Below are positions 1,414 to 54,203 of a stretch of DNA of 64,000 bases, piece after piece. A program made the position numbers and the translations under genes. Position 1 is the first letter of the stretch; each line of letters begins with the position of its first letter. The notes beneath the pieces were generated by a model. That model saw only the letters and a list, made by a program, of their open reading frames with translations, searched no databases and was not told where the DNA came from. Location: NCBI RefSeq assembly GCF_024502345.1, contig NZ_JALDNN010000001.1, one strand, 5' to 3'. The stretch comes from Escherichia coli. Its GTDB lineage: Bacteria; Pseudomonadota; Gammaproteobacteria; Enterobacterales; Enterobacteriaceae.

Positions 1414-3069
1414 TTAACTCATCACGCGGTCGTCAACATACTGACGTTTATCCGGCGCTGGCGGAAAATACTGATACAGCCATGTTTCACTGATAGCGTC
1501 CCCCTGACAACGTAGATACATCCGCATATCGACCGGATCAGTGGAGTCCGAAGTCGGATACCAGTCAAACTGAATACGATAACCATCGATGGGTTCAATA
1601 TAGAGAATTTCGATTTGCTTCGCTTCCCCACTGGAAAGCGTAATCACCGGCTCAATGCCTTTTGGCGCGGCAGCTTTCAGATCACCACCAACGAAATCGA
1701 CGGCAAAACGACGCGCCCATTTTTCGGGATAGTGTTCACCTGGCGCCCAACCTTCCGGGAAACCGCCCATGCCGGTACGCGTCGCCATAACGCGCGCTAA
1801 TGGGCAATGAACAGGCGGTTGCGCACTCCAGTACAGACGATACTGGAATGCAAACTCATCACCTGCTTTTACAGCTTTTTCTGGCTGCCAGAAGCAGACA
1901 ATGTTATCCAGCGTTTCGCCCGTTGTTGGGATTTCCATCAGGCCGATGGTGCCCTTACCCCACTTGTTACGCGGTTCCACCCACAGACTTGGGCGTTTGT
2001 TATACCAGCCCATAATGTCCTGATAATGGGAGAAGTCACGATCCAGTTGCAATAAACCAAACCCTTTCGGGTTGTTGTCGGTGTAAGCATTGAACTGCAA
2101 TTTTTGCGGATTATTCAGCGGACGGCAAATCCACTCGCCGTTGCCCCGCCACATGGACAGACGATCAGAGTCATGAATTTGCGGATGAATTGTATCGCAC
2201 ATCCGACGTTCATTAGTACCGCAGCTGAACATACTGGTCATCGGCGCAATGCCCAGCTGTTTAATGTCTTTGCGCGCATACAGGTGATTTTCCACATCCA
2301 TAATCACCTGACTTTTCTCACAATGGATAGTGAACTTATAGGCACCAGTAATGCTGGCGCTATCGAGCAACGCATAAACGGTAAAGGTAGTTGCCCCCGG
2401 TTTTACCGTATCAAACCAGAAGGCGGTAAAGTCGGGGAACTCTTCTTTACTGTCGGTGTAAGTGTCGATCGCCAGGCCGCGGGCCGACAAACCGTATTGA
2501 TATGTATCATCAACGGCGCGGAAATAACTCGCGCCGAGAAATGATACTACATCACGGCGCGCCAGTTCGGGGGCTTTAAACACGCGAAAACCGGCAAAGC
2601 CGAGATCGCTTTGCCCTTCTAATTGTTTTGTATCAACACCCGCATCGTTGTATTTGAACAACTCCGGGCGAAAGTGAATTTCACGCGCCAGATGTGTTGC
2701 TGGATCTACAGAAAACATACGAACGCGGCGACGGAATCCCATTCCCATATGGAAGAACTGAGCGTCCAGTTGACGGTTCTCAACGTTATGCCAGAGCGAT
2801 TTTTCGGCGTCGTATTGAATACTGTTATAAGCCTGCGGCGTCATTGTCGCCAGCGTGTCAGGTAACGGACGAGGCGCACCACGCCACGCTGTTTGCGCTA
2901 AGTCGTGCGCCATTGACTGTAGAATGGAGAAGTCAAAACGCTGGGTTTGCCCGTCGGCAATATCAGAATCTGCCGCGAATGCCGCCTGAGAAAAAAGAGA
3001 AGCAATGCCGCTGGTACCGCACACGGCGGCCATAGCCATTGAACCTTTAATAAATCGTCTACGATCCAT
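1414..3069 (-). CDS. opgD: Osmoregulated periplasmic glucan biosynthesis protein D, Tat-exported
   Basis: 551 aa; N-terminal twin-arginine signal [18 protein letters not shown]...AFA; MdoG/MdoD family. Confidence 0.9.
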
Positions 3070-7521: not shown

Positions 7522-7795
7522 TGACCAAAAACCTCTTTGCGTCACATTTTTACAACAATTATTGCAGAGAAAATTAATGCTATTGGAATGAAGAGAGTAA
7601 CGAATGGCTAAACTGGCTAACCCGAATGACGAAAAATTCTGGAAAACAGCACGCAATTTCGTGAAGTGATTATTTTCGTCCCTAAGGAAACCTCATAGGA
7701 TGCCTGCGGGTGCCTGAGACTTTCTGTTTTCAGGCTAACCGGGAATCAGAAAGACGAAGGCCCCGACCGATATTTCTATCAACCGAGGCCAACGA

Positions 7796-8003
<208 letters not shown>

Positions 8004-8418: not shown

Positions 8419-8483
8419 CTTCCGATGTAGACCCGTATTCTTCGCCTGTACCACGGGTCGGTTTTAGTACAGGCGTTTTCTTT
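8419..8483 (+). ncRNA. rydC: RydC small RNA (Hfq-dependent pseudoknot sRNA)
   Basis: DNA CTTCCGATGTAGACCCGTATTCTTCGCCTGTACCACGGGTCGGTTTTAGTACAGGCGTTTTCTTT matches the remembered RydC sequence and ends in a T-run, next to cybB. Confidence 0.7.
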
Positions 8484-38779: not shown

Positions 38780-38808
38780 ATGCTCTGGATAAGGATTATC
38801 CAATTCTA

Positions 38809-38917
38809 AAAAAAAGCCCGGACGACTGTTCGGGCTTGTCTTTTTATATGTTGGAAAATCAGTGGCAATGCAATGGCCCAACAGAAAATAAAATCTGTGA
38901 CAATAAAGGCATATAAC
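38809..38917 (-). ncRNA. micC: MicC small RNA (porin-regulating, Hfq-dependent)
   Basis: The minus strand reads GTTATATGCCTTTATTGTCACAGATTTTATTTTCTGTTGGGCCATTGCATTGCCACTGATTTTCCAACATATAAAAAGACAAGCCCGAACAGTCGTCCGGGCTTTTTTTT, matching remembered MicC; divergent from ompN and sharing a bidirectional hairpin with the ydbK 3' end. Confidence 0.8.
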
Positions 38918-39144
38918 CCGCGCAGAATAACGTATAGAAAATTAAAAGTATAATTTTTATTTTGTATGTATTATCTTCGATACATTCACCAGACTTATTA
39001 TCATTTCAGAAGAATTATTTGATTAAGGTTTTACTTAAGGCGTAACAAATGATATTTATCGGCTAACTGAACTTCTCCTTTAGGATGTTTTCACTCCCCG
39101 GAATGGGGATAAAAGGCAAATAAAATAACTAAAGGATTTATTCA

Positions 39145-40278
39145 ATGAAAAGCAAAGTACTGGCACTTTTAAATCCTGCCCTGCTCGCCGCAGGTGCTGC
39201 ACATGCAGCCGAAGTTTATAATAAAGACGGCAACAAATTAGATCTGTATGGCAAAGTTGATGGCCTGCATTATTTTTCTGATAATTCAGCGAAAGATGGC
39301 GATCAGAGCTATGCGCGTCTGGGTTTTAAAGGCGAAACCCAAATTAACGATCAACTCACTGGCTACGGTCAATGGGAATACAATATTCAGGCAAACAACA
39401 CTGAATCTTCAAAAAACCAGTCATGGACCCGTCTGGCATTTGCCGGGCTGAAATTTGCAGATTACGGTTCTTTCGATTACGGACGTAATTATGGCGTAAT
39501 GTACGACATCGAAAGCTGGACCGATATGCTGCCTGAATTTGGCGGTGACTCTTATACCAATGCAGACAACTTTATGACTGGTCGTGCCAACGGCGTCGCG
39601 ACTTATCGTAATACTGATTTCTTCGGTCTGGTAAATGGTCTGAACTTCGCGGTGCAGTATCAAGGTAACAACGAAGGTGCCAGTAATGGTCAGGAAGGCA
39701 CCAACAACGGACGTGATGTTCGCCATGAAAATGGTGACGGCTGGGGTCTTTCCACAACATATGATTTAGGCATGGGCTTTAGCGCTGGTGCGGCATACAC
39801 CTCATCTGACCGCACCAATGACCAGGTTAACCATACTGCGGCGGGTGGTGATAAAGCAGACGCGTGGACTGCTGGGCTAAAATACGATGCTAACAATATT
39901 TACCTGGCAACCATGTATTCAGAAACGCGTAATATGACCCCGTTTGGCGACAGCGATTATGCTGTTGCAAACAAAACCCAGAACTTTGAAGTCACTGCAC
40001 AGTACCAGTTTGATTTTGGTCTGCGTCCGGCAGTCTCTTTCCTGATGTCTAAAGGCCGTGACCTGCACGCTGCCGGTGGTGCAGACAACCCGGCAGGTGT
40101 TGATGATAAAGATCTTGTTAAATACGCCGATGTTGGCGCGACTTACTATTTCAATAAAAACATGTCCACTTATGTTGACTATAAAATCAACCTGTTGGAT
40201 GAAGATGACAGTTTCTACGCTGCCAACGGCATCTCTACCGATGATATTGTCGCTTTAGGTCTGGTTTATCAGTTCTAA
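39145..40278 (+). CDS. ompN: Outer-membrane porin N (OmpC/OmpF family)
   Basis: 377 aa with a signal peptide and the general-porin C-terminus ...LGLVYQF. Confidence 0.9.
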
Positions 40279-40286
40279 ATCCTCCT

Positions 40287-40310
40287 GCCCGCTGTTATGG
40301 CGGGCTTTTT
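40287..40310 (+). terminator. Rho-independent terminator after ompN
   Basis: GCCCGC-tgttatg-GCGGGC followed by TTTTT. Confidence 0.6.
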
Positions 40311-40337
40311 CTGCTTATTCTTCCTCCTTTGATCTAA

Positions 40338-40853
<516 letters not shown>

Positions 40854-40860
40854 CACTAAC

Positions 40861-40885
40861 GCCCGCACATTGCTGCGGGCTTTTT
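40861..40885 (+). terminator. Rho-independent terminator after uspF
   Basis: GCCCGCA-cattgct-GCGGGC followed by TTTTT. Confidence 0.6.
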
Positions 40886-41028
40886 GATTCATTTCGCAAA
40901 TGTGCTGACATTTTCCCCTCTAATCCGTACCATACACGCCACTGTTTTTATATCAGATTTCTTATGCTGGGCATTCCGGCATGACGCATACTCTTCTGAT
41001 GCCATATAACGAATTGAGTCGCTTTTAA

Positions 41029-41964
41029 ATGTCGCAAAATCAAGAAATTAGTAAGAAAGAACAATACAACCTGAACAAATTACAAAAACGTCTGCGTCGT
41101 AACGTGGGCGAAGCCATTGCTGACTTCAATATGATTGAAGAAGGCGATCGCATCATGGTTTGCCTCTCCGGGGGTAAAGACAGCTATACCATGCTGGAGA
41201 TTCTGCGCAATTTGCAGCAAAGCGCGCCAATCAATTTTTCGCTGGTGGCTGTTAACCTCGATCAAAAGCAACCGGGCTTCCCGGAACACGTTCTGCCCGA
41301 GTATCTTGAAAAGCTGGGCGTTGAGTACAAGATTGTCGAAGAGAACACTTACGGTATCGTGAAAGAGAAGATTCCAGAGGGCAAAACCACTTGCTCACTG
41401 TGTTCTCGCCTTCGTCGCGGTATCCTTTATCGTACCGCAACGGAACTGGGGGCGACGAAGATCGCGCTGGGTCACCATCGTGACGATATCCTGCAGACGT
41501 TGTTCTTAAATATGTTCTACGGCGGCAAGATGAAAGGTATGCCTCCGAAACTGATGAGCGATGATGGCAAACATATCGTTATTCGTCCGCTGGCCTACTG
41601 CCGCGAGAAAGATATTCAGCGATTTGCCGATGCAAAAGCGTTCCCGATTATTCCGTGCAACCTGTGCGGTTCACAGCCTAACCTGCAACGTCAGGTGATT
41701 GCTGACATGTTGCGTGACTGGGATAAACGTTATCCAGGGCGTATCGAGACGATGTTCAGCGCGATGCAGAATGTGGTGCCGTCGCATCTGTGCGATACTA
41801 ACCTGTTCGATTTCAAAGGCATCACCCACGGTTCTGAAGTGGTTAACGGGGGTGATTTGGCGTTTGATCGCGAAGAGATCCCACTACAACCGGCGGGCTG
41901 GCAGCCAGAAGAAGATGAAAATCAGTTGGATGAGTTACGGCTGAATGTGGTTGAAGTGAAATAA
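41029..41964 (+). CDS. ttcA: tRNA 2-thiocytidine(32) synthetase
   Basis: 311 aa; SGGKDS PP-loop motif and CxxC motifs. Confidence 0.9.
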
Positions 41965-42092: not shown

Positions 42093-43466
42093 TTATTTTA
42101 ATAACCGCACCCGGCACGTTTTTCCTTTAATCTTCCCGCCCTGTAACTGTTTCCATGCTTTATGAGCAACAGCCTGACGGACCGCGACATAGACATGCGC
42201 CGGATGCACGGCGATTTTGCCAATATCTGCGCCATCAAGCCCGATATCTCCTGTCAGTGCACCTAATACATCACCCGGGCGCATTTTGGCTTTTTTCCCG
42301 CCATCAATACACAACGTTGCCATTTCTGCTTCCAGCGGCACAATGGAACTATTAGCTGGCGGCGTTTGCCAGTTAAGTTTTATCTGCAACATGTCAGAAA
42401 TGATATTGGCCCGCTGTGCTTCTTCCGGAGCACAGAAACTGATCGCCAGACCGCTATTTCCTGCACGAGCTGTACGGCCGATGCGATGTACATGAACTTC
42501 AGGGTCCCACGCCAGCTCAAAGTTCACCACCAGCTCAAGCGATTTAATATCCAGACCACGCGCAGCAACATCAGTCGCAACCAGTACACGGGCGCTACCG
42601 TTAGCAAAACGTACCAGGGTCTGATCGCGATCGCGTTGCTCCAAATCGCCGTGTAATGACAATGCACTTTGCCCTACTTCATTCAGCGCGTCGCAGACAG
42701 CCTGGCAATCTTTTTTGGTATTGCAAAACACCACGCAAGAGGATGGCTGATGCAAGCTTAATAACCGTTGCAACAGAGGAATTTTGCCTTTGCTGGATGT
42801 CTCATAAAATTGTTGTTCAATGGGTGGCAAAGCATCTGTTGAGTCAATTTCAATCGCCAAAGGATCGCGTTGCACTCGTCCGCTGATTACGGCGATGGCT
42901 TCCGGCCAGGTTGCCGAAAACAGAAGCGTCTGTCGAGATGCAGGCGCAAAACGGATGACATCATCAATGGCATCGCTAAATCCCATATCCAGCATGCGGT
43001 CGGCCTCATCCATCACCAAAGTATTCAGCGCATCCAGTGATACCGTGCCTTTTTGCAAGTGATCCAGCAAACGACCCGGCGTTGCAACGATAATATGCGG
43101 CGCATGTTGCAACGAATCACGCTGCATACCGAACGGTTGACCACCGCACAACGTCAAAATTTTGGTATTTGGGAGAAAACGCGCCAGCCGACGCAATTCA
43201 CCTGCCACCTGATCCGCCAGTTCACGCGTAGGACACAGCACTAAAGCCTGGGTTTGAAATAGCGACGCATCAATTTGCTGTAACAAGCCGAGGCCAAAAG
43301 CCGCCGTTTTGCCGCTGCCGGTTTTCGCCTGCACGCGAACATCTTTTCCGGCAAGGATCGCCGGAAGCGCGGCGACCTGCACCGGCGTCATGGTTAAATA
43401 ACCCAACTCATTAAGGTTCGTGAGTTGGGCGGGAGGCAAAACATGCAGGGTAGAAAAAGCGGTCAC
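42093..43466 (-). CDS. dbpA: ATP-dependent RNA helicase DbpA (DEAD box, 23S rRNA-dependent)
   Basis: 457 aa; Q motif, AKTGSGKT Walker A and DEAD motif. Confidence 0.9.
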   Translation of the reverse strand: MTAFSTLHVLPPAQLTNLNELGYLTMTPVQVAALPAILAGKDVRVQAKTGSGKTAAFGLGLLQQIDASLFQTQALVLCPTRELADQVAGELRRLARFLPNTKILTLCGGQPFGMQRDSLQHAPHIIVATPGRLLDHLQKGTVSLDALNTLVMDEADRMLDMGFSDAIDDVIRFAPASRQTLLFSATWPEAIAVISGRVQRDPLAIEIDSTDALPPIEQQFYETSSKGKIPLLQRLLSLHQPSSCVVFCNTKKDCQAVCDALNEVGQSALSLHGDLEQRDRDQTLVRFANGSARVLVATDVAARGLDIKSLELVVNFELAWDPEVHVHRIGRTARAGNSGLAISFCAPEEAQRANIISDMLQIKLNWQTPPANSSIVPLEAEMATLCIDGGKKAKMRPGDVLGALTGDIGLDGADIGKIAVHPAHVYVAVRQAVAHKAWKQLQGGKIKGKTCRVRLLK

Positions 43467-43726
43467 AATCTATTCTCGTGGTCATCGACGCAAAGTTAGC
43501 AGGCGCGTATCCTCGCAGATCTACGCTCACGATGCGACAATTTAATCGGTTCTTCATCAGGTGGTGGGTCAGGCATGGGTTGCGGGCGAGGGATCGGATC
43601 GGGCACTGGAACAGGATCGCCAGGAATCGGTTCAGGGACAGGAATTTGCAAATAAATAAGTGTCGTCATATTTCCCTCCGGTCATTGGGTGGACTCTTAA
43701 AGGGTAGACGCTGATAAATAACAGGC

Positions 43727-43848
43727 AAAAAAAAGCCGACTCATCAAAGTCGGCGTCGTACGAATCAATTGTGCTATGCAGTAATTCAAAAAAGGAAGTA
43801 AGACAATATGGAGCGCAACGCCCATCGCTTGACGTTGCATTCACCTGC
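43727..43848 (-). ncRNA. fnrS: FnrS small RNA (FNR-activated, Hfq-dependent)
   Basis: The minus strand reads GCAGGTGAATGCAACGTCAAGCGATGGGCGTTGCGCTCCATATTGTCTTACTTCCTTTTTTGAATTACTGCATAGCACAATTGATTCGTACGACGCCGACTTTGATGAGTCGGCTTTTTTTT, matching remembered FnrS, with a terminal hairpin and T-run. Confidence 0.8.
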
Positions 43849-43883
43849 AAGGGAGATATTGCCCTGAATGGGTAGAGAGTTTA

Positions 43884-43897
43884 TTGACTTCGCTCAA
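43884..43897 (-). promoter_or_regulatory. FNR site (TTGAG-N4-GTCAA) centred about 42 bp upstream of the fnrS 5' end
   Basis: The minus strand reads TTGAGCGAAGTCAA; position fits a class II FNR-activated promoter. Confidence 0.6.
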
Positions 43898-43943
43898 ACT
43901 TTGCGGCGTTTTTGTATACAGACAGCCGGAAAAATTGCTTTTG

Positions 43944-44948
<1,005 letters not shown>

Positions 44949-46998: not shown

Positions 46999-47283
46999 GT
47001 TACATCCTCCCGCAATTAAGAGCGCGATATGATAACCAGACCGGGTCGGTCCAACAACGTATTACCCAAAATTCCAGTAATAAGTTCCAAATATTGCCGA
47101 TATTTTAAGCAAAATGCTTATGCATGATTATTCATTCACGATATTAATAATGTAACTTATATTTTCGTGAAATCTGTCACTGAAGAAAATTGGCAACTAA
47201 AGGTTAAAACCGTTATAACACAGTCACCGGCGCAGAGGAGACAATGCCGGACTTAAGACGCGGATGCACTGCTGTGTGTACTG

Positions 47284-47319
47284 TAGAGTCTGGCGGATGT
47301 CGACAGACTCTATTTTTTT
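47284..47319 (+). terminator. Strong plus-strand hairpin with T7 run and no plus-strand CDS upstream; possible sRNA 3' end (IsrA-like position)
   Basis: TAGAGTCTG-gcggatgtcga-CAGACTCTA followed by TTTTTTT; lies in the smrA-abgR intergenic region, where both flanking genes are on the minus strand. Confidence 0.35.
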
Positions 47320-47327
47320 ATGCAGTT

Positions 47328-53256: not shown

Positions 53257-53417
53257 ACATTAAACAATTTGTGCCAGCTTGTTCACACTTTTATGTAAAG
53301 TTACCCTTAACAACTTAAGGGTTTTCAAATAGATAGACATATATTTACATCTAATATCGGAATTCTCTGCTGTTAAGGTTTGCTTAGACTTACTTGCTCC
53401 CTAAAAAGATGTTAAAA

Positions 53418-53431
53418 TTGACAAATATCAA
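53418..53431 (+). promoter_or_regulatory. FNR autoregulatory site in the fnr promoter
   Basis: TTGACAAATATCAA (TTGAC-N4-ATCAA) about 20 bp upstream of the fnr start codon. Confidence 0.6.
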
Positions 53432-53450: not shown

Positions 53451-54203
53451 ATGATCCCGGAAAAGCGAATTATACGGCGCATTCAGTCTGGCGGTTGTGC
53501 TATCCATTGCCAGGATTGCAGCATCAGCCAGCTTTGCATCCCGTTCACACTCAACGAACATGAGCTTGATCAGCTTGATAATATCATTGAGCGGAAGAAG
53601 CCTATTCAGAAAGGCCAGACGCTGTTTAAGGCTGGTGATGAACTTAAATCGCTTTATGCCATCCGCTCCGGTACGATTAAAAGTTATACCATCACTGAGC
53701 AAGGCGACGAGCAAATCACTGGTTTCCATTTAGCTGGCGACCTGGTGGGATTTGACGCCATCGGCAGCGGCCATCACCCGAGCTTCGCTCAGGCGCTGGA
53801 AACCTCGATGGTATGTGAAATCCCGTTCGAAACGCTGGACGATTTGTCCGGTAAAATGCCGAATCTGCGTCAGCAGATGATGCGTCTGATGAGCAGTGAA
53901 ATCAAAGGCGATCAGGACATGATCCTGCTGTTGTCGAAGAAAAATGCCGAGGAACGTCTGGCTGCATTCATCTACAACCTGTCCCGTCGTTTTGCCCAAC
54001 GCGGCTTCTCCCCTCGTGAATTCCGCCTGACGATGACTCGTGGCGATATCGGTAACTATCTGGGCCTGACGGTAGAAACCATCAGCCGTCTGCTGGGTCG
54101 CTTCCAGAAAAGCGGCATGCTGGCAGTCAAAGGTAAATACATCACCATCGAAAATAACGATGCGCTGGCCCAGCTTGCTGGTCATACGCGTAACGTTGCC
54201 TGA
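53451..54203 (+). CDS. fnr: Global anaerobic regulator FNR (CRP/FNR family)
   Basis: 250 aa from the internal Met, [32 protein letters not shown]..., with the N-terminal Fe-S cysteine cluster. Confidence 0.95.

What the first reader, a model, noticed from the sequence alone, without database searches (positions are those of the whole stretch)
43727..43897. FnrS sRNA with an upstream FNR box
The full FnrS sequence and its terminator are recognisable on the minus strand between dbpA and zntB, with TTGAG-N4-GTCAA centred about 42 bp upstream. The gene for the regulator, fnr, lies about 10 kb away in the same window with its own autoregulatory TTGAC-N4-ATCAA site.
Basis: partly seen in the sequence, partly recalled or inferred. 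Interest (0 to 1): 0.3.

Follow-up and report, generated by a model that had tools for sequence, protein, structure and literature searches.

The report
FnrS small RNA, FNR-activated promoter

Summary
Confirmed and already known. Rfam family RF01796 (FnrS) matches window 43731-43848 (-) at 134.8 bits against a gathering score of 60, over the full model. The 122-nt RNA (43727-43848, -) is identical to the annotated K-12 gene fnrS (b4699). It lies between zntB and ynaL-dbpA, as in K-12. The box TTGAGcgaaGTCAA occupies 43884-43897. Its centre is at -42.5 from the RNA's first base, the position published from FNR ChIP-seq in K-12.

In 120 other Enterobacterales loci, retrieved with a pattern that lies inside the RNA, an FNR-type box sits at the same offset. 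It is exact (TTGA-N6-TCAA) in 87 of 120 loci and has one or two mismatches in the 5' half-site in the rest. The spacer between the box and the -10 element varies freely. The terminator stem shows many compensatory changes.

The gene fnr (53451-54203, +) lies 9.6 kb away. Its own operator TTGACaaatATCAA (53418-53431) is centred at -0.5.

The mechanism comes from the literature on K-12. Anaerobically active FNR activates a class II promoter, and the Hfq-dependent sRNA represses mRNAs by pairing at their ribosome-binding sites. Expression in this strain was not tested here. Interest is low.

The parts
43727..43848 (-). fnrS gene: 122-nt FnrS small regulatory RNA, with +1 = G at 43848
   Evidence: Rfam RF01796 at 134.8 bits, full model. 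It is 122/122 identical to K-12 b4699. The published mutant positions G4G5, C47U48U49 and U57-59 (PMC8595263) fall on those bases when numbered from 43848.
43811..43842 (-). 5' stem-loop (RNA nt 7-38), a long G+C-rich hairpin
   Evidence: Predicted by the MFE fold and by the consensus fold of 103 distinct sequences. Pair 11/34 changes from G-C to A-U in 2 sequences and pair 18/27 from C-G to U-A in 3. Most other pairs are invariant.
43787..43802 (-). C/U-rich unpaired stretch CUUACUUCCUUUUUUG (RNA nt 47-62), the main target-pairing (seed) region; CUUCCU is complementary to a Shine-Dalgarno-like AGGAAG
   Evidence: Unpaired in the Rfam consensus and in the alignment fold. It contains the published pairing mutants fnrS-I (U57-59) and fnrS-II (C47U48U49). 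Nearly invariant across genera.
43762..43787 (-). Second, A/U-rich stem-loop (RNA nt 62-87)
   Evidence: Present in the Rfam consensus structure and the MFE fold. Only the inner 3 pairs are recovered by the alignment fold, and covariation is weak.
43727..43754 (-). Rho-independent terminator: stem-loop 43754-43735 plus U8 tail 43734-43727, the expected Hfq-binding 3' module
   Evidence: Terminator scan and fold. In the 103-sequence alignment three stem pairs show compensatory changes in 46, 26 and 29 sequences.
43856..43861 (-). -10 hexamer CAATAT (-13 to -8)
   Evidence: G-14, C-13, A-12 and T-8 are 99% conserved in 121 sequences, whereas -30 to -18 is variable. No full sigma70 consensus promoter was found, as expected for an activator-dependent promoter.
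43884..43897 (-). FNR box TTGAGcgaaGTCAA, centred at -42.5 (class II activator position)
   Evidence: Sequence. Myers 2013 gives an FNR ChIP-seq peak at fnrS with a site at -42.5. A box at the same offset is exact in 87 of 120 other loci and near-exact in the rest. Positions -48 to -46 and -39 to -36 are 94-100% conserved.
43909..43912 (-). Conserved A-tract at -64 to -61, just upstream of the FNR box (role inferred: contact for the RNA polymerase alpha C-terminal domain, or another regulator)
   Evidence: A is present at 74-94% at these four positions in 121 sequences, amid variable flanks. The function was not tested.
53451..54203 (+). fnr, the gene for the O2-sensing activator of fnrS
   Evidence: NCBIfam NF008365 at 529.7 bits against a cut-off of 228, full length. 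Annotated as fnr in a strain identical over the queried 451-bp fnrS region.
53418..53431 (+). FNR operator TTGACaaatATCAA at the fnr promoter (autorepression, centred at -0.5)
   Evidence: Sequence. Myers 2013 Table 1 lists fnr as directly repressed through a site at -0.5. TAAAAT at 53413-53418 fits a -10 element for a start at 53425.
43944..44927 (-). zntB, the upstream neighbour on the same strand; its stop codon begins 98 nt upstream of the FnrS +1
   Evidence: NF007092 at 645 bits. ZntB lies upstream on the same strand in 111 of the 117 loci where it was detected.
43496..43669 (-). ynaL, a 57-aa proline-rich small protein gene that starts 57 nt after the FnrS terminator
   Evidence: RefSeq and K-12 annotation. 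Its synthesis was shown by epitope tagging in VanOrsdel 2018, PMC6001520.
42093..43466 (-). dbpA, the downstream neighbour on the same strand
   Evidence: NF008744 at 767 bits.

Best explanation
The locus is the E. coli fnrS gene with its class II FNR-dependent promoter.

How it works, in three steps:
1. When oxygen is absent, [4Fe-4S]-FNR, encoded 9.6 kb away at 53451-54203, dimerises. It binds the box TTGAGcgaaGTCAA centred at -42.5. From there it recruits RNA polymerase to a promoter that has a -10 element (CAATAT) but no usable -35.
2. Transcription starts at G 43848 and stops at the intrinsic terminator (43754-43727). This gives a 122-nt RNA.
3. The RNA is bound by Hfq. Through its unpaired C/U-rich stretch (nt 47-62) and its 5' end, it pairs with the ribosome-binding regions of mRNAs that are not needed anaerobically, such as sodB, maeA, gpmA, folE, cydDC, marA and iscR. 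It represses their translation. In this way FNR, an activator, gains a negative arm to its regulon.

fnr itself is held in check by FNR binding at its own start site.

Shown here: the identity of the RNA, the terminator, the box and its position, the synteny, the conservation of the promoter architecture, and covariation in the terminator.

Taken from the literature on K-12: FNR binding in vivo, anaerobic induction, Hfq dependence and the targets.

Inferred: that this strain behaves the same way.
For: - Rfam RF01796 scores 134.8 bits against a gathering score of 60, over the full model.
- The RNA is 122/122 identical to K-12 fnrS. The 300-bp intergenic region differs at only 2 positions: -4 of the promoter and the ynaL ribosome-binding site.
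- The locus is present in 5393 of 5426 complete E. coli genomes, in a single copy.
- The FNR box is centred at -42.5. [quoted passage not shown]
- Phylogenetic footprint: 120 Enterobacterales loci were retrieved by an RNA-internal pattern that excludes the promoter. Positions -48 to -46 and -39 to -36 are 94-100% conserved, and G-14, C-13, A-12 and T-8 are 99% conserved. Positions -30 to -18 carry almost no information.
- The terminator stem has compensatory changes in 46, 26 and 29 sequences at three pairs.
- The order zntB-fnrS-(ynaL-dbpA)-ttcA is conserved.
- Published mutant numbering fits a +1 at 43848.
- Mechanism in the literature: FNR- and ArcA-dependent anaerobic expression, base pairing at ribosome-binding sites and stimulation by Hfq (PMC11572966; PMC10993149; PMC3688515).
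Against: Nothing contradicts this reading. There are four caveats.
- No expression data exist for this strain.
- The promoter differs from K-12 by C instead of T at -4 (43852). T is the consensus at 91% across species. The C variant does recur: one complete E. coli genome (H1) is 100% identical over the 451-bp query, and locus L055 has the same upstream sequence.
- The MFE of the RNA is not unusual for its composition (z = -1.67; 14 of 200 shuffles fold as well).
- Most pairs of the 5' hairpin are invariant and so give no covariation evidence. Part of that invariance was imposed by the search pattern.
Confidence: 0.97

Rival explanations
1. The FnrS sequence is not an independent gene. It is part of a longer transcript: either the 3' UTR of zntB, processed to release the sRNA, or a 5' leader of ynaL-dbpA. 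On this reading the FNR box acts on those genes.
For: zntB, fnrS, ynaL and dbpA are all on the minus strand. The 96-nt zntB-fnrS spacer has no hairpin-plus-U terminator, and its fold is no more stable than shuffled sequence (z = 0.07). ynaL begins only 57 nt after the FnrS terminator, and no sigma70-like promoter was found in 43400-44100.
Against: A complete promoter (FNR box, fixed 21-nt spacer, -10 element) is conserved at a fixed distance from the invariant 5' end GCAGGUGA in 120 loci. The terminator is strong (8 bp plus U8) and is maintained by covariation. K-12 annotation and published work treat FnrS as a discrete 122-nt primary transcript. In most non-Enterobacteriaceae loci dbpA and ynaL are absent downstream and a convergent ttcA follows, so a leader function cannot be the conserved role. 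Read-through may occur as well, but it would not replace the sRNA function.
Confidence: 0.02
2. The transcript encodes a small protein, from the 47-codon ATG ORF at 43697-43840 (-) that starts at RNA nt 9, rather than acting as a regulatory RNA.
For: An ATG at +9 is preceded by AGGUGA, and the ORF appears in the mechanical ORF list. The ATG is 98-99% conserved.
Against: The ORF runs through the terminator and ends 30 nt beyond the RNA's 3' end, so the 122-nt RNA carries no stop codon. AGGUGA abuts the AUG with no spacer. Homologues carry 1-nt and other indels that are not multiples of 3 inside the frame (alignment column 42 and columns 57-59). Conservation is at the nucleotide level, with no third-position pattern.
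Confidence: 0.005
3. The palindrome is a chance match or a site for another CRP-family regulator such as CRP, not a functional FNR site.
For: TTGA-N6-TCAA occurs 3 times in the window against 1.74 expected by chance, and one copy is intragenic in opgD. CRP-family sites resemble each other. From memory, Durand and Storz also reported some CRP dependence.
Against: The half-sites are TTGA/TCAA, the FNR type (consensus TTGATnnnnATCAA, quoted), not the CRP type (TGTGA/TCACA). The position is -42.5. ChIP-seq shows FNR bound there in K-12. The site is conserved at a fixed offset in 120 loci.
Confidence: 0.005

Closest known systems
FnrS (Rfam RF01796; E. coli K-12 fnrS, b4699; Durand and Storz 2010, Boysen et al. 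2010)
   Same: The RNA sequence is identical (122/122). The same neighbours are present (zntB upstream, ynaL-dbpA downstream). The FNR box has the same sequence and the same position at -42.5. The terminator is the same.
   Different: There is one promoter polymorphism (C for T at -4, window 43852) and one base change in the ynaL ribosome-binding region. This strain has no Rac prophage beyond ttcA, unlike K-12. None of these differences touches the RNA.
Class II FNR-activated promoters (e.g. narG, dmsA, nrfA, ydhY)
   Same: A single FNR site lies near -41.5 and overlaps the -35 region. The -10 element is recognisable and no consensus -35 is present.
   Different: The centre is at -42.5 rather than the modal -41.5. 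This is within the +/-4 nt range reported, and ydhY shares it. The product is a non-coding RNA rather than an operon of respiratory enzymes.
Other regulator-paired Hfq-dependent sRNAs that give a transcription factor an opposite-sign arm (RyhB/Fur, OxyS/OxyR, ArcZ/ArcA)
   Same: The logic is the same: a transcription factor controls one sRNA, which represses many mRNAs by pairing at their ribosome-binding sites. FnrS shares targets with RyhB, namely sodB, sodA, marA and the isc operon.
   Different: There is no sequence relationship. The input signal differs (O2 sensed through an Fe-S cluster in FNR). FnrS is a primary transcript with its own promoter, not derived from a 3' UTR.

Membership tests
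FnrS sRNA (Rfam RF01796) | Sequence-plus-structure match to the family covariance model above the curated gathering score | tested here: met
   134.8 bits against a gathering score of 60, E = 4.4e-24, model positions 1-119 of 119, not truncated.
FnrS sRNA (Rfam RF01796) | Orthology with the experimentally defined E. coli K-12 gene (sequence and length) | tested here: met
   122/122 identical to NC_000913.3 1409129-1409250, ncRNA fnrS b4699.
FnrS sRNA (Rfam RF01796) | Conserved genomic position downstream of zntB (ydaN), on the same strand | tested here: met
   zntB ends 98 nt upstream in the window. The arrangement is the same in 111 of the 117 loci where ZntB was detected.
FnrS sRNA (Rfam RF01796) | Rho-independent terminator with a U tail (3' module of Hfq-dependent sRNAs) | tested here: met
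   An 8-bp stem with 5 G-C pairs plus U8. Compensatory changes occur at 3 stem pairs.
FnrS sRNA (Rfam RF01796) | Unpaired C/U-rich pairing region that contains the residues shown by mutation to be needed for target repression | tested here: met
   C47U48U49 and U57-59 are present and predicted to be unpaired in the consensus fold. Actual pairing with targets was not tested.
FnrS sRNA (Rfam RF01796) | Anaerobic, FNR-dependent accumulation; Hfq binding; repression of target mRNAs | not testable with these tools
   Known for K-12 from the literature only. It is inferred for this strain from identity of the RNA and of the FNR box.
Class II FNR-dependent promoter | A site matching TTGAT-N4-ATCAA centred near -41.5 (+/-4) relative to the transcription start | tested here: met
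   TTGAGcgaaGTCAA matches 8 of 10 consensus positions and is centred at -42.5. The same value appears in Myers 2013 Table 1. The start site is taken from the K-12 annotation and the Rfam model, not mapped here.
Class II FNR-dependent promoter | A -10 element at the proper distance, with no consensus -35 (activator dependence) | tested here: met
   CAATAT lies at -13 to -8, with A-12 and T-8 99% conserved. The sigma70 consensus scan finds no complete promoter in 43400-44100.
Class II FNR-dependent promoter | FNR occupancy in vivo and loss of activation in an fnr mutant | not testable with these tools
   A ChIP-seq peak was reported for K-12. The window's box is identical to the K-12 box.
FNR (CRP/FNR family regulator), autoregulated fnr gene | Full-length match to the Fnr protein family, and an FNR site overlapping the gene's own transcription start | tested here: met
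   NF008365 at 529.7 bits against a cut-off of 228. TTGACaaatATCAA lies at 53418-53431 with TAAAAT immediately upstream. The literature places the site at -0.5 and reports repression.

The most novel reading that the evidence does not exclude
The fnrS gene may be embedded in a longer same-strand transcription unit, zntB-fnrS-ynaL-dbpA. On this reading zntB has no terminator of its own, so zntB transcripts end at, or are processed at, the FnrS terminator. A fraction of FNR-activated transcription would read through that terminator into ynaL-dbpA. That would make the proline-rich small protein YnaL and the 23S-rRNA helicase DbpA anaerobically induced members of the FNR regulon.
Probability: 0.12. 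Interest if true: 0.3.

Novelty: already known. Interest (0 to 1): 0.08.

Why it matters
It matters little as a discovery. FnrS has been a characterised E. coli sRNA since 2010, and this copy is identical to the reference.

It has three practical uses:
- It shows that standard RefSeq (PGAP) records of the two E. coli strains examined do not annotate fnrS, although the gene is present.
- The cross-species footprint gives a clean picture of what is constrained in the promoter: the FNR box, the -10 element, a fixed spacing and an upstream A-tract.

Tried and rejected
- The two primary papers (Durand and Storz 2010; Boysen et al. 2010) could not be fetched by PubMed or PMC id. Statements about them rest on how held papers cite them, or on memory where marked.
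- A whole-word search for 'ynaL' returned only organic-chemistry papers. A narrower search found VanOrsdel 2018.
- A search for papers linking FnrS and dbpA transcription found nothing relevant.
- Thermodynamic stability of the RNA gives no support (z = -1.67).
- The count of TTGA-N6-TCAA in the window gives no statistical support on its own. The third copy, at 2770-2783, is inside opgD and is treated as chance.
- The consensus sigma70 scan finds no promoter for fnrS. I read this as activator dependence, not as absence of a promoter.
- I considered a coding function for the ORF that starts at +9 and rejected it.
- I considered zntB 3'-UTR or ynaL-leader readings as the primary function and rejected them.

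Full report
**Observation**

On the minus strand, window 43600-44050 reads as follows:
- the 3' end of an ORF;
- a 96-nt spacer that contains TTGAGCGAAGTCAA;
- GGGCAATATCTCCCTT;
- GCAGGTGAATGCAACG...GCCGACTTTGATGAGTCGGCTTTTTTTT.

A gathering-threshold scan of the whole window against Rfam 15 places family RF01796 (FnrS) at 43731-43848 (-). The score is 134.8 bits against a gathering score of 60, E = 4.4e-24, and the match covers model positions 1-119 of 119. A terminator scan finds an 8-bp stem with 5 G-C pairs at 43754-43735, followed by a run of T. The MFE fold gives the 5' hairpin, an unpaired C/U-rich stretch, a second A/U-rich hairpin and the terminator.

**Identity**

The K-12 reference annotates the ncRNA fnrS (b4699) at 1409129-1409250, between zntB and ynaL-dbpA. 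Aligned with K-12, the window is identical over all 122 nt of the RNA. Across 300 bp of intergenic DNA it differs at two positions only: C for T at -4 (window 43852), and one base in the ynaL ribosome-binding region.

The 451-bp region occurs in 5393 of 5426 complete E. coli genomes, normally once each.

The flanking ORFs are:
- zntB (43944-44927, -; 645 bits);
- dbpA (42093-43466, -; 767 bits);
- ttcA (41029-41964, +; 514 bits).

The 57-codon ORF at 43496-43669 (-) is the annotated small-protein gene ynaL. Its product was detected by epitope tagging (PMC6001520).

**The FNR box**

TTGAG-CGAA-GTCAA occupies 43897-43884 on the minus strand. Its centre is at 43890.5, which is -42.5 from +1 at 43848.

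That +1 is supported in two ways. It matches the K-12 annotation. The residues mutated in the published alleles fnrS-I (U57-59), fnrS-II (C47U48U49) and fnrS-III (G4G5) fall on those bases when counted from 43848 (PMC8595263).

Myers et al. 2013 list fnrS among operons with an FNR ChIP-seq peak. They give one FNR site, at -42.5, and report sigma70 occupancy higher without O2. They also note that 19 of 23 FNR-activated promoters have their site at -41.5 +/- 4, the class II position (PMC3688515).

The motif count alone is weak evidence. TTGA-N6-TCAA occurs three times in the window against 1.74 expected, and 24 of 100 shuffles reach three. One of the three copies is inside opgD. The other two are the fnrS box and the fnr operator.

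**Conservation**

I scanned the species-representative genome collection with a degenerate pattern taken from RNA positions 12-42. The promoter was therefore not part of the query. They come from Citrobacter, Enterobacter, Klebsiella relatives, Pantoea, Erwinia, Serratia, Yersinia, Rahnella, Dickeya, Pectobacterium, Edwardsiella, Hafnia, Photorhabdus, Arsenophonus, Sodalis and others.

I anchored the sequences on the RNA 5' end without gaps:
- Of the 120 other loci, 87 have an exact TTGA-N6-TCAA at -49 to -36, and one has it shifted by 1 nt.
- The remaining loci carry one or two mismatches in the 5' half-site, such as cTGATcgacATCAA or TTGcGc...ATCAA. These are mostly Erwiniaceae, with some others such as Arsenophonus.
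- Per-column conservation is 94-100% at -48 to -46 and at -39 to -36, and 99% at G-14, C-13, A-12 and T-8.
- Positions -30 to -18 carry almost no information.
- A short A-tract at -64 to -61 is also conserved (74-94%).

This is the footprint expected of a class II activator site with a -10 element at a fixed spacing.

**RNA structure across species**

The RNA gives 103 distinct sequences, which I aligned. The first ~55 nt are nearly invariant. Part of that invariance was imposed by the search pattern, but positions 1-11 and 43-55 were free.

The consensus fold recovers the 5' hairpin and the terminator. Compensatory changes occur at three terminator pairs, in 46, 26 and 29 sequences. A few occur in the 5' hairpin: pair 11/34 changes from G-C to A-U in 2 sequences and pair 18/27 from C-G to U-A in 3. 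The second hairpin is only partly supported.

**Synteny**

ZntB lies upstream on the same strand in 111 of the 117 loci where it was detected. In most Enterobacteriaceae loci its coding match ends 97-98 nt before +1. DbpA follows in 41 loci. In 89 loci ttcA lies downstream in convergent orientation: next to fnrS where dbpA is absent, and beyond dbpA where it is present. I infer that zntB-fnrS-ttcA is the ancestral frame and that ynaL-dbpA is an Enterobacteriaceae feature.

**The regulator gene**

fnr lies at 53451-54203 (+), with 529.7 bits to NF008365. This is 9.6 kb from the FnrS start. TTGACAAATATCAA lies at 53418-53431, immediately after TAAAAT. Its centre at 53424.5 implies a start at 53425, that is, a site at -0.5. 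This matches Myers 2013, who list fnr as directly repressed through a site at -0.5.

**Mechanism**

Shown here:
- a complete, conserved class II FNR promoter drives a discrete RNA gene with a strong terminator;
- the RNA has an exposed CUUACUUCCUUUUUUG stretch, and its CUUCCU is complementary to Shine-Dalgarno-like AGGAAG.

From the literature on K-12:
- FnrS is made on the shift to anaerobiosis under FNR control, with a contribution from ArcA;
- it is Hfq-dependent;
- it represses many mRNAs of aerobic or oxidative-stress functions by pairing at their ribosome-binding sites, including sodB, gpmA, cydDC, marA and iscR;
- it accounts for part of the 'indirect' FNR regulon.

Inferred: this strain behaves the same way, because the RNA and the FNR box are identical to those of K-12.

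**Rival readings**

Three alternatives were considered:
- *Processed zntB 3' UTR or ynaL-dbpA leader.* The shared strand, the lack of any terminator in the zntB-fnrS spacer and the lack of a recognisable ynaL promoter suggest this. It fails as the main explanation, because the promoter is conserved at a fixed distance from the invariant 5' end. It also fails because dbpA and ynaL are absent downstream in most genera. Some read-through remains possible, and that is the 'novel case'.
- *Coding function for the ORF that starts at +9.* The ORF overruns the terminator, and homologues have frame-breaking indels.
- *CRP site or chance palindrome.* The half-site type, the ChIP-seq evidence and the conservation all exclude this.

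**Verdict**

The feature is already known, and interest is low.

Noticed in passing
window 43496-43726 (-): ynaL (57 aa, proline-rich) begins 57 nt after the FnrS terminator on the same strand, and dbpA follows 29 nt later. No sigma70-like promoter was found in 43400-44100. ynaL-dbpA may therefore depend on read-through from fnrS or zntB, or on an unrecognised promoter. No held paper addresses this.
   Followed up: partly
window 43849-43946 (-): The 96-nt spacer between the zntB stop codon and the FnrS +1 has no hairpin-plus-U terminator, and its fold is no better than shuffled sequence (z = 0.07). The first intrinsic terminator downstream of zntB is the FnrS terminator. The spacing is almost fixed at 97-98 nt in most Enterobacteriaceae loci.
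   Followed up: partly
window 43909-43912 (-), i.e. -64 to -61 of the fnrS promoter: A short A-tract just upstream of the FNR box is conserved (74-94%) across 121 Enterobacterales sequences, although its flanks vary. It may be an alpha-CTD/UP-like contact or part of another regulator's site, such as ArcA.
   Followed up: no
window 43852: Promoter polymorphism: C at -4 where K-12 and 91% of species have T. One complete E. coli genome (H1) is 100% identical over the 451-bp query, and the E. coli-like locus L055 has the same upstream sequence.
   Followed up: partly
window ~38800-41964: No Rac prophage: uspF and ompN lie directly beside ttcA. In K-12-like strains intR/Rac follows ttcA instead. 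The prophage-free arrangement covers at least 80% of the query in 3518 of 5426 complete genomes.
   Followed up: partly
window 38800-38920 (-), 47226-47321 (+), 8419-8482 (+), 7708-7859 (+): Four other Rfam hits above the gathering score: MicC (125 bits), McaS/IsrA (118 bits), RydC (92.5 bits) and a chromosomal sok antitoxin RNA (111.5 bits).
   Followed up: no
window 2770-2783: The third TTGA-N6-TCAA in the window (TTGACGGTTCTCAA) lies inside the 551-codon opgD ORF (1414-3069, -). It is probably a chance match.
   Followed up: partly
window 53315-53328 (+): A weak FNR-like palindrome, TTAAGggttTTCAA, lies 103 bp upstream of the centre of the fnr operator. From memory, it would correspond to the upstream FNR site described at -103.5 of the fnr promoter. 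This was not verified in a held paper.
   Followed up: no
L001 and L123 (RefSeq records) against L002 (K-12): The PGAP-annotated RefSeq genomes examined list zntB and ynaL but give no ncRNA feature for fnrS. Only the K-12 reference does, so the gene is systematically unannotated in these records.
   Followed up: partly
one search hit table (E. coli genomes): Six matches to the fnrS region are on records labelled as plasmids. Thirty-three complete genomes have no match. Strain SL112 retains only the zntB part of the query, which suggests rare natural deletions of fnrS.
   Followed up: no
L020, L031, L034 (Arsenophonus, Photorhabdus): The most divergent FnrS homologues keep nt 1-46 but have a different seed stretch (GUAGUUUUUCUCAUAUUG) and a different second hairpin. 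L034 lacks a clear terminator stem in the extracted segment. Their target sets may differ.
   Followed up: no
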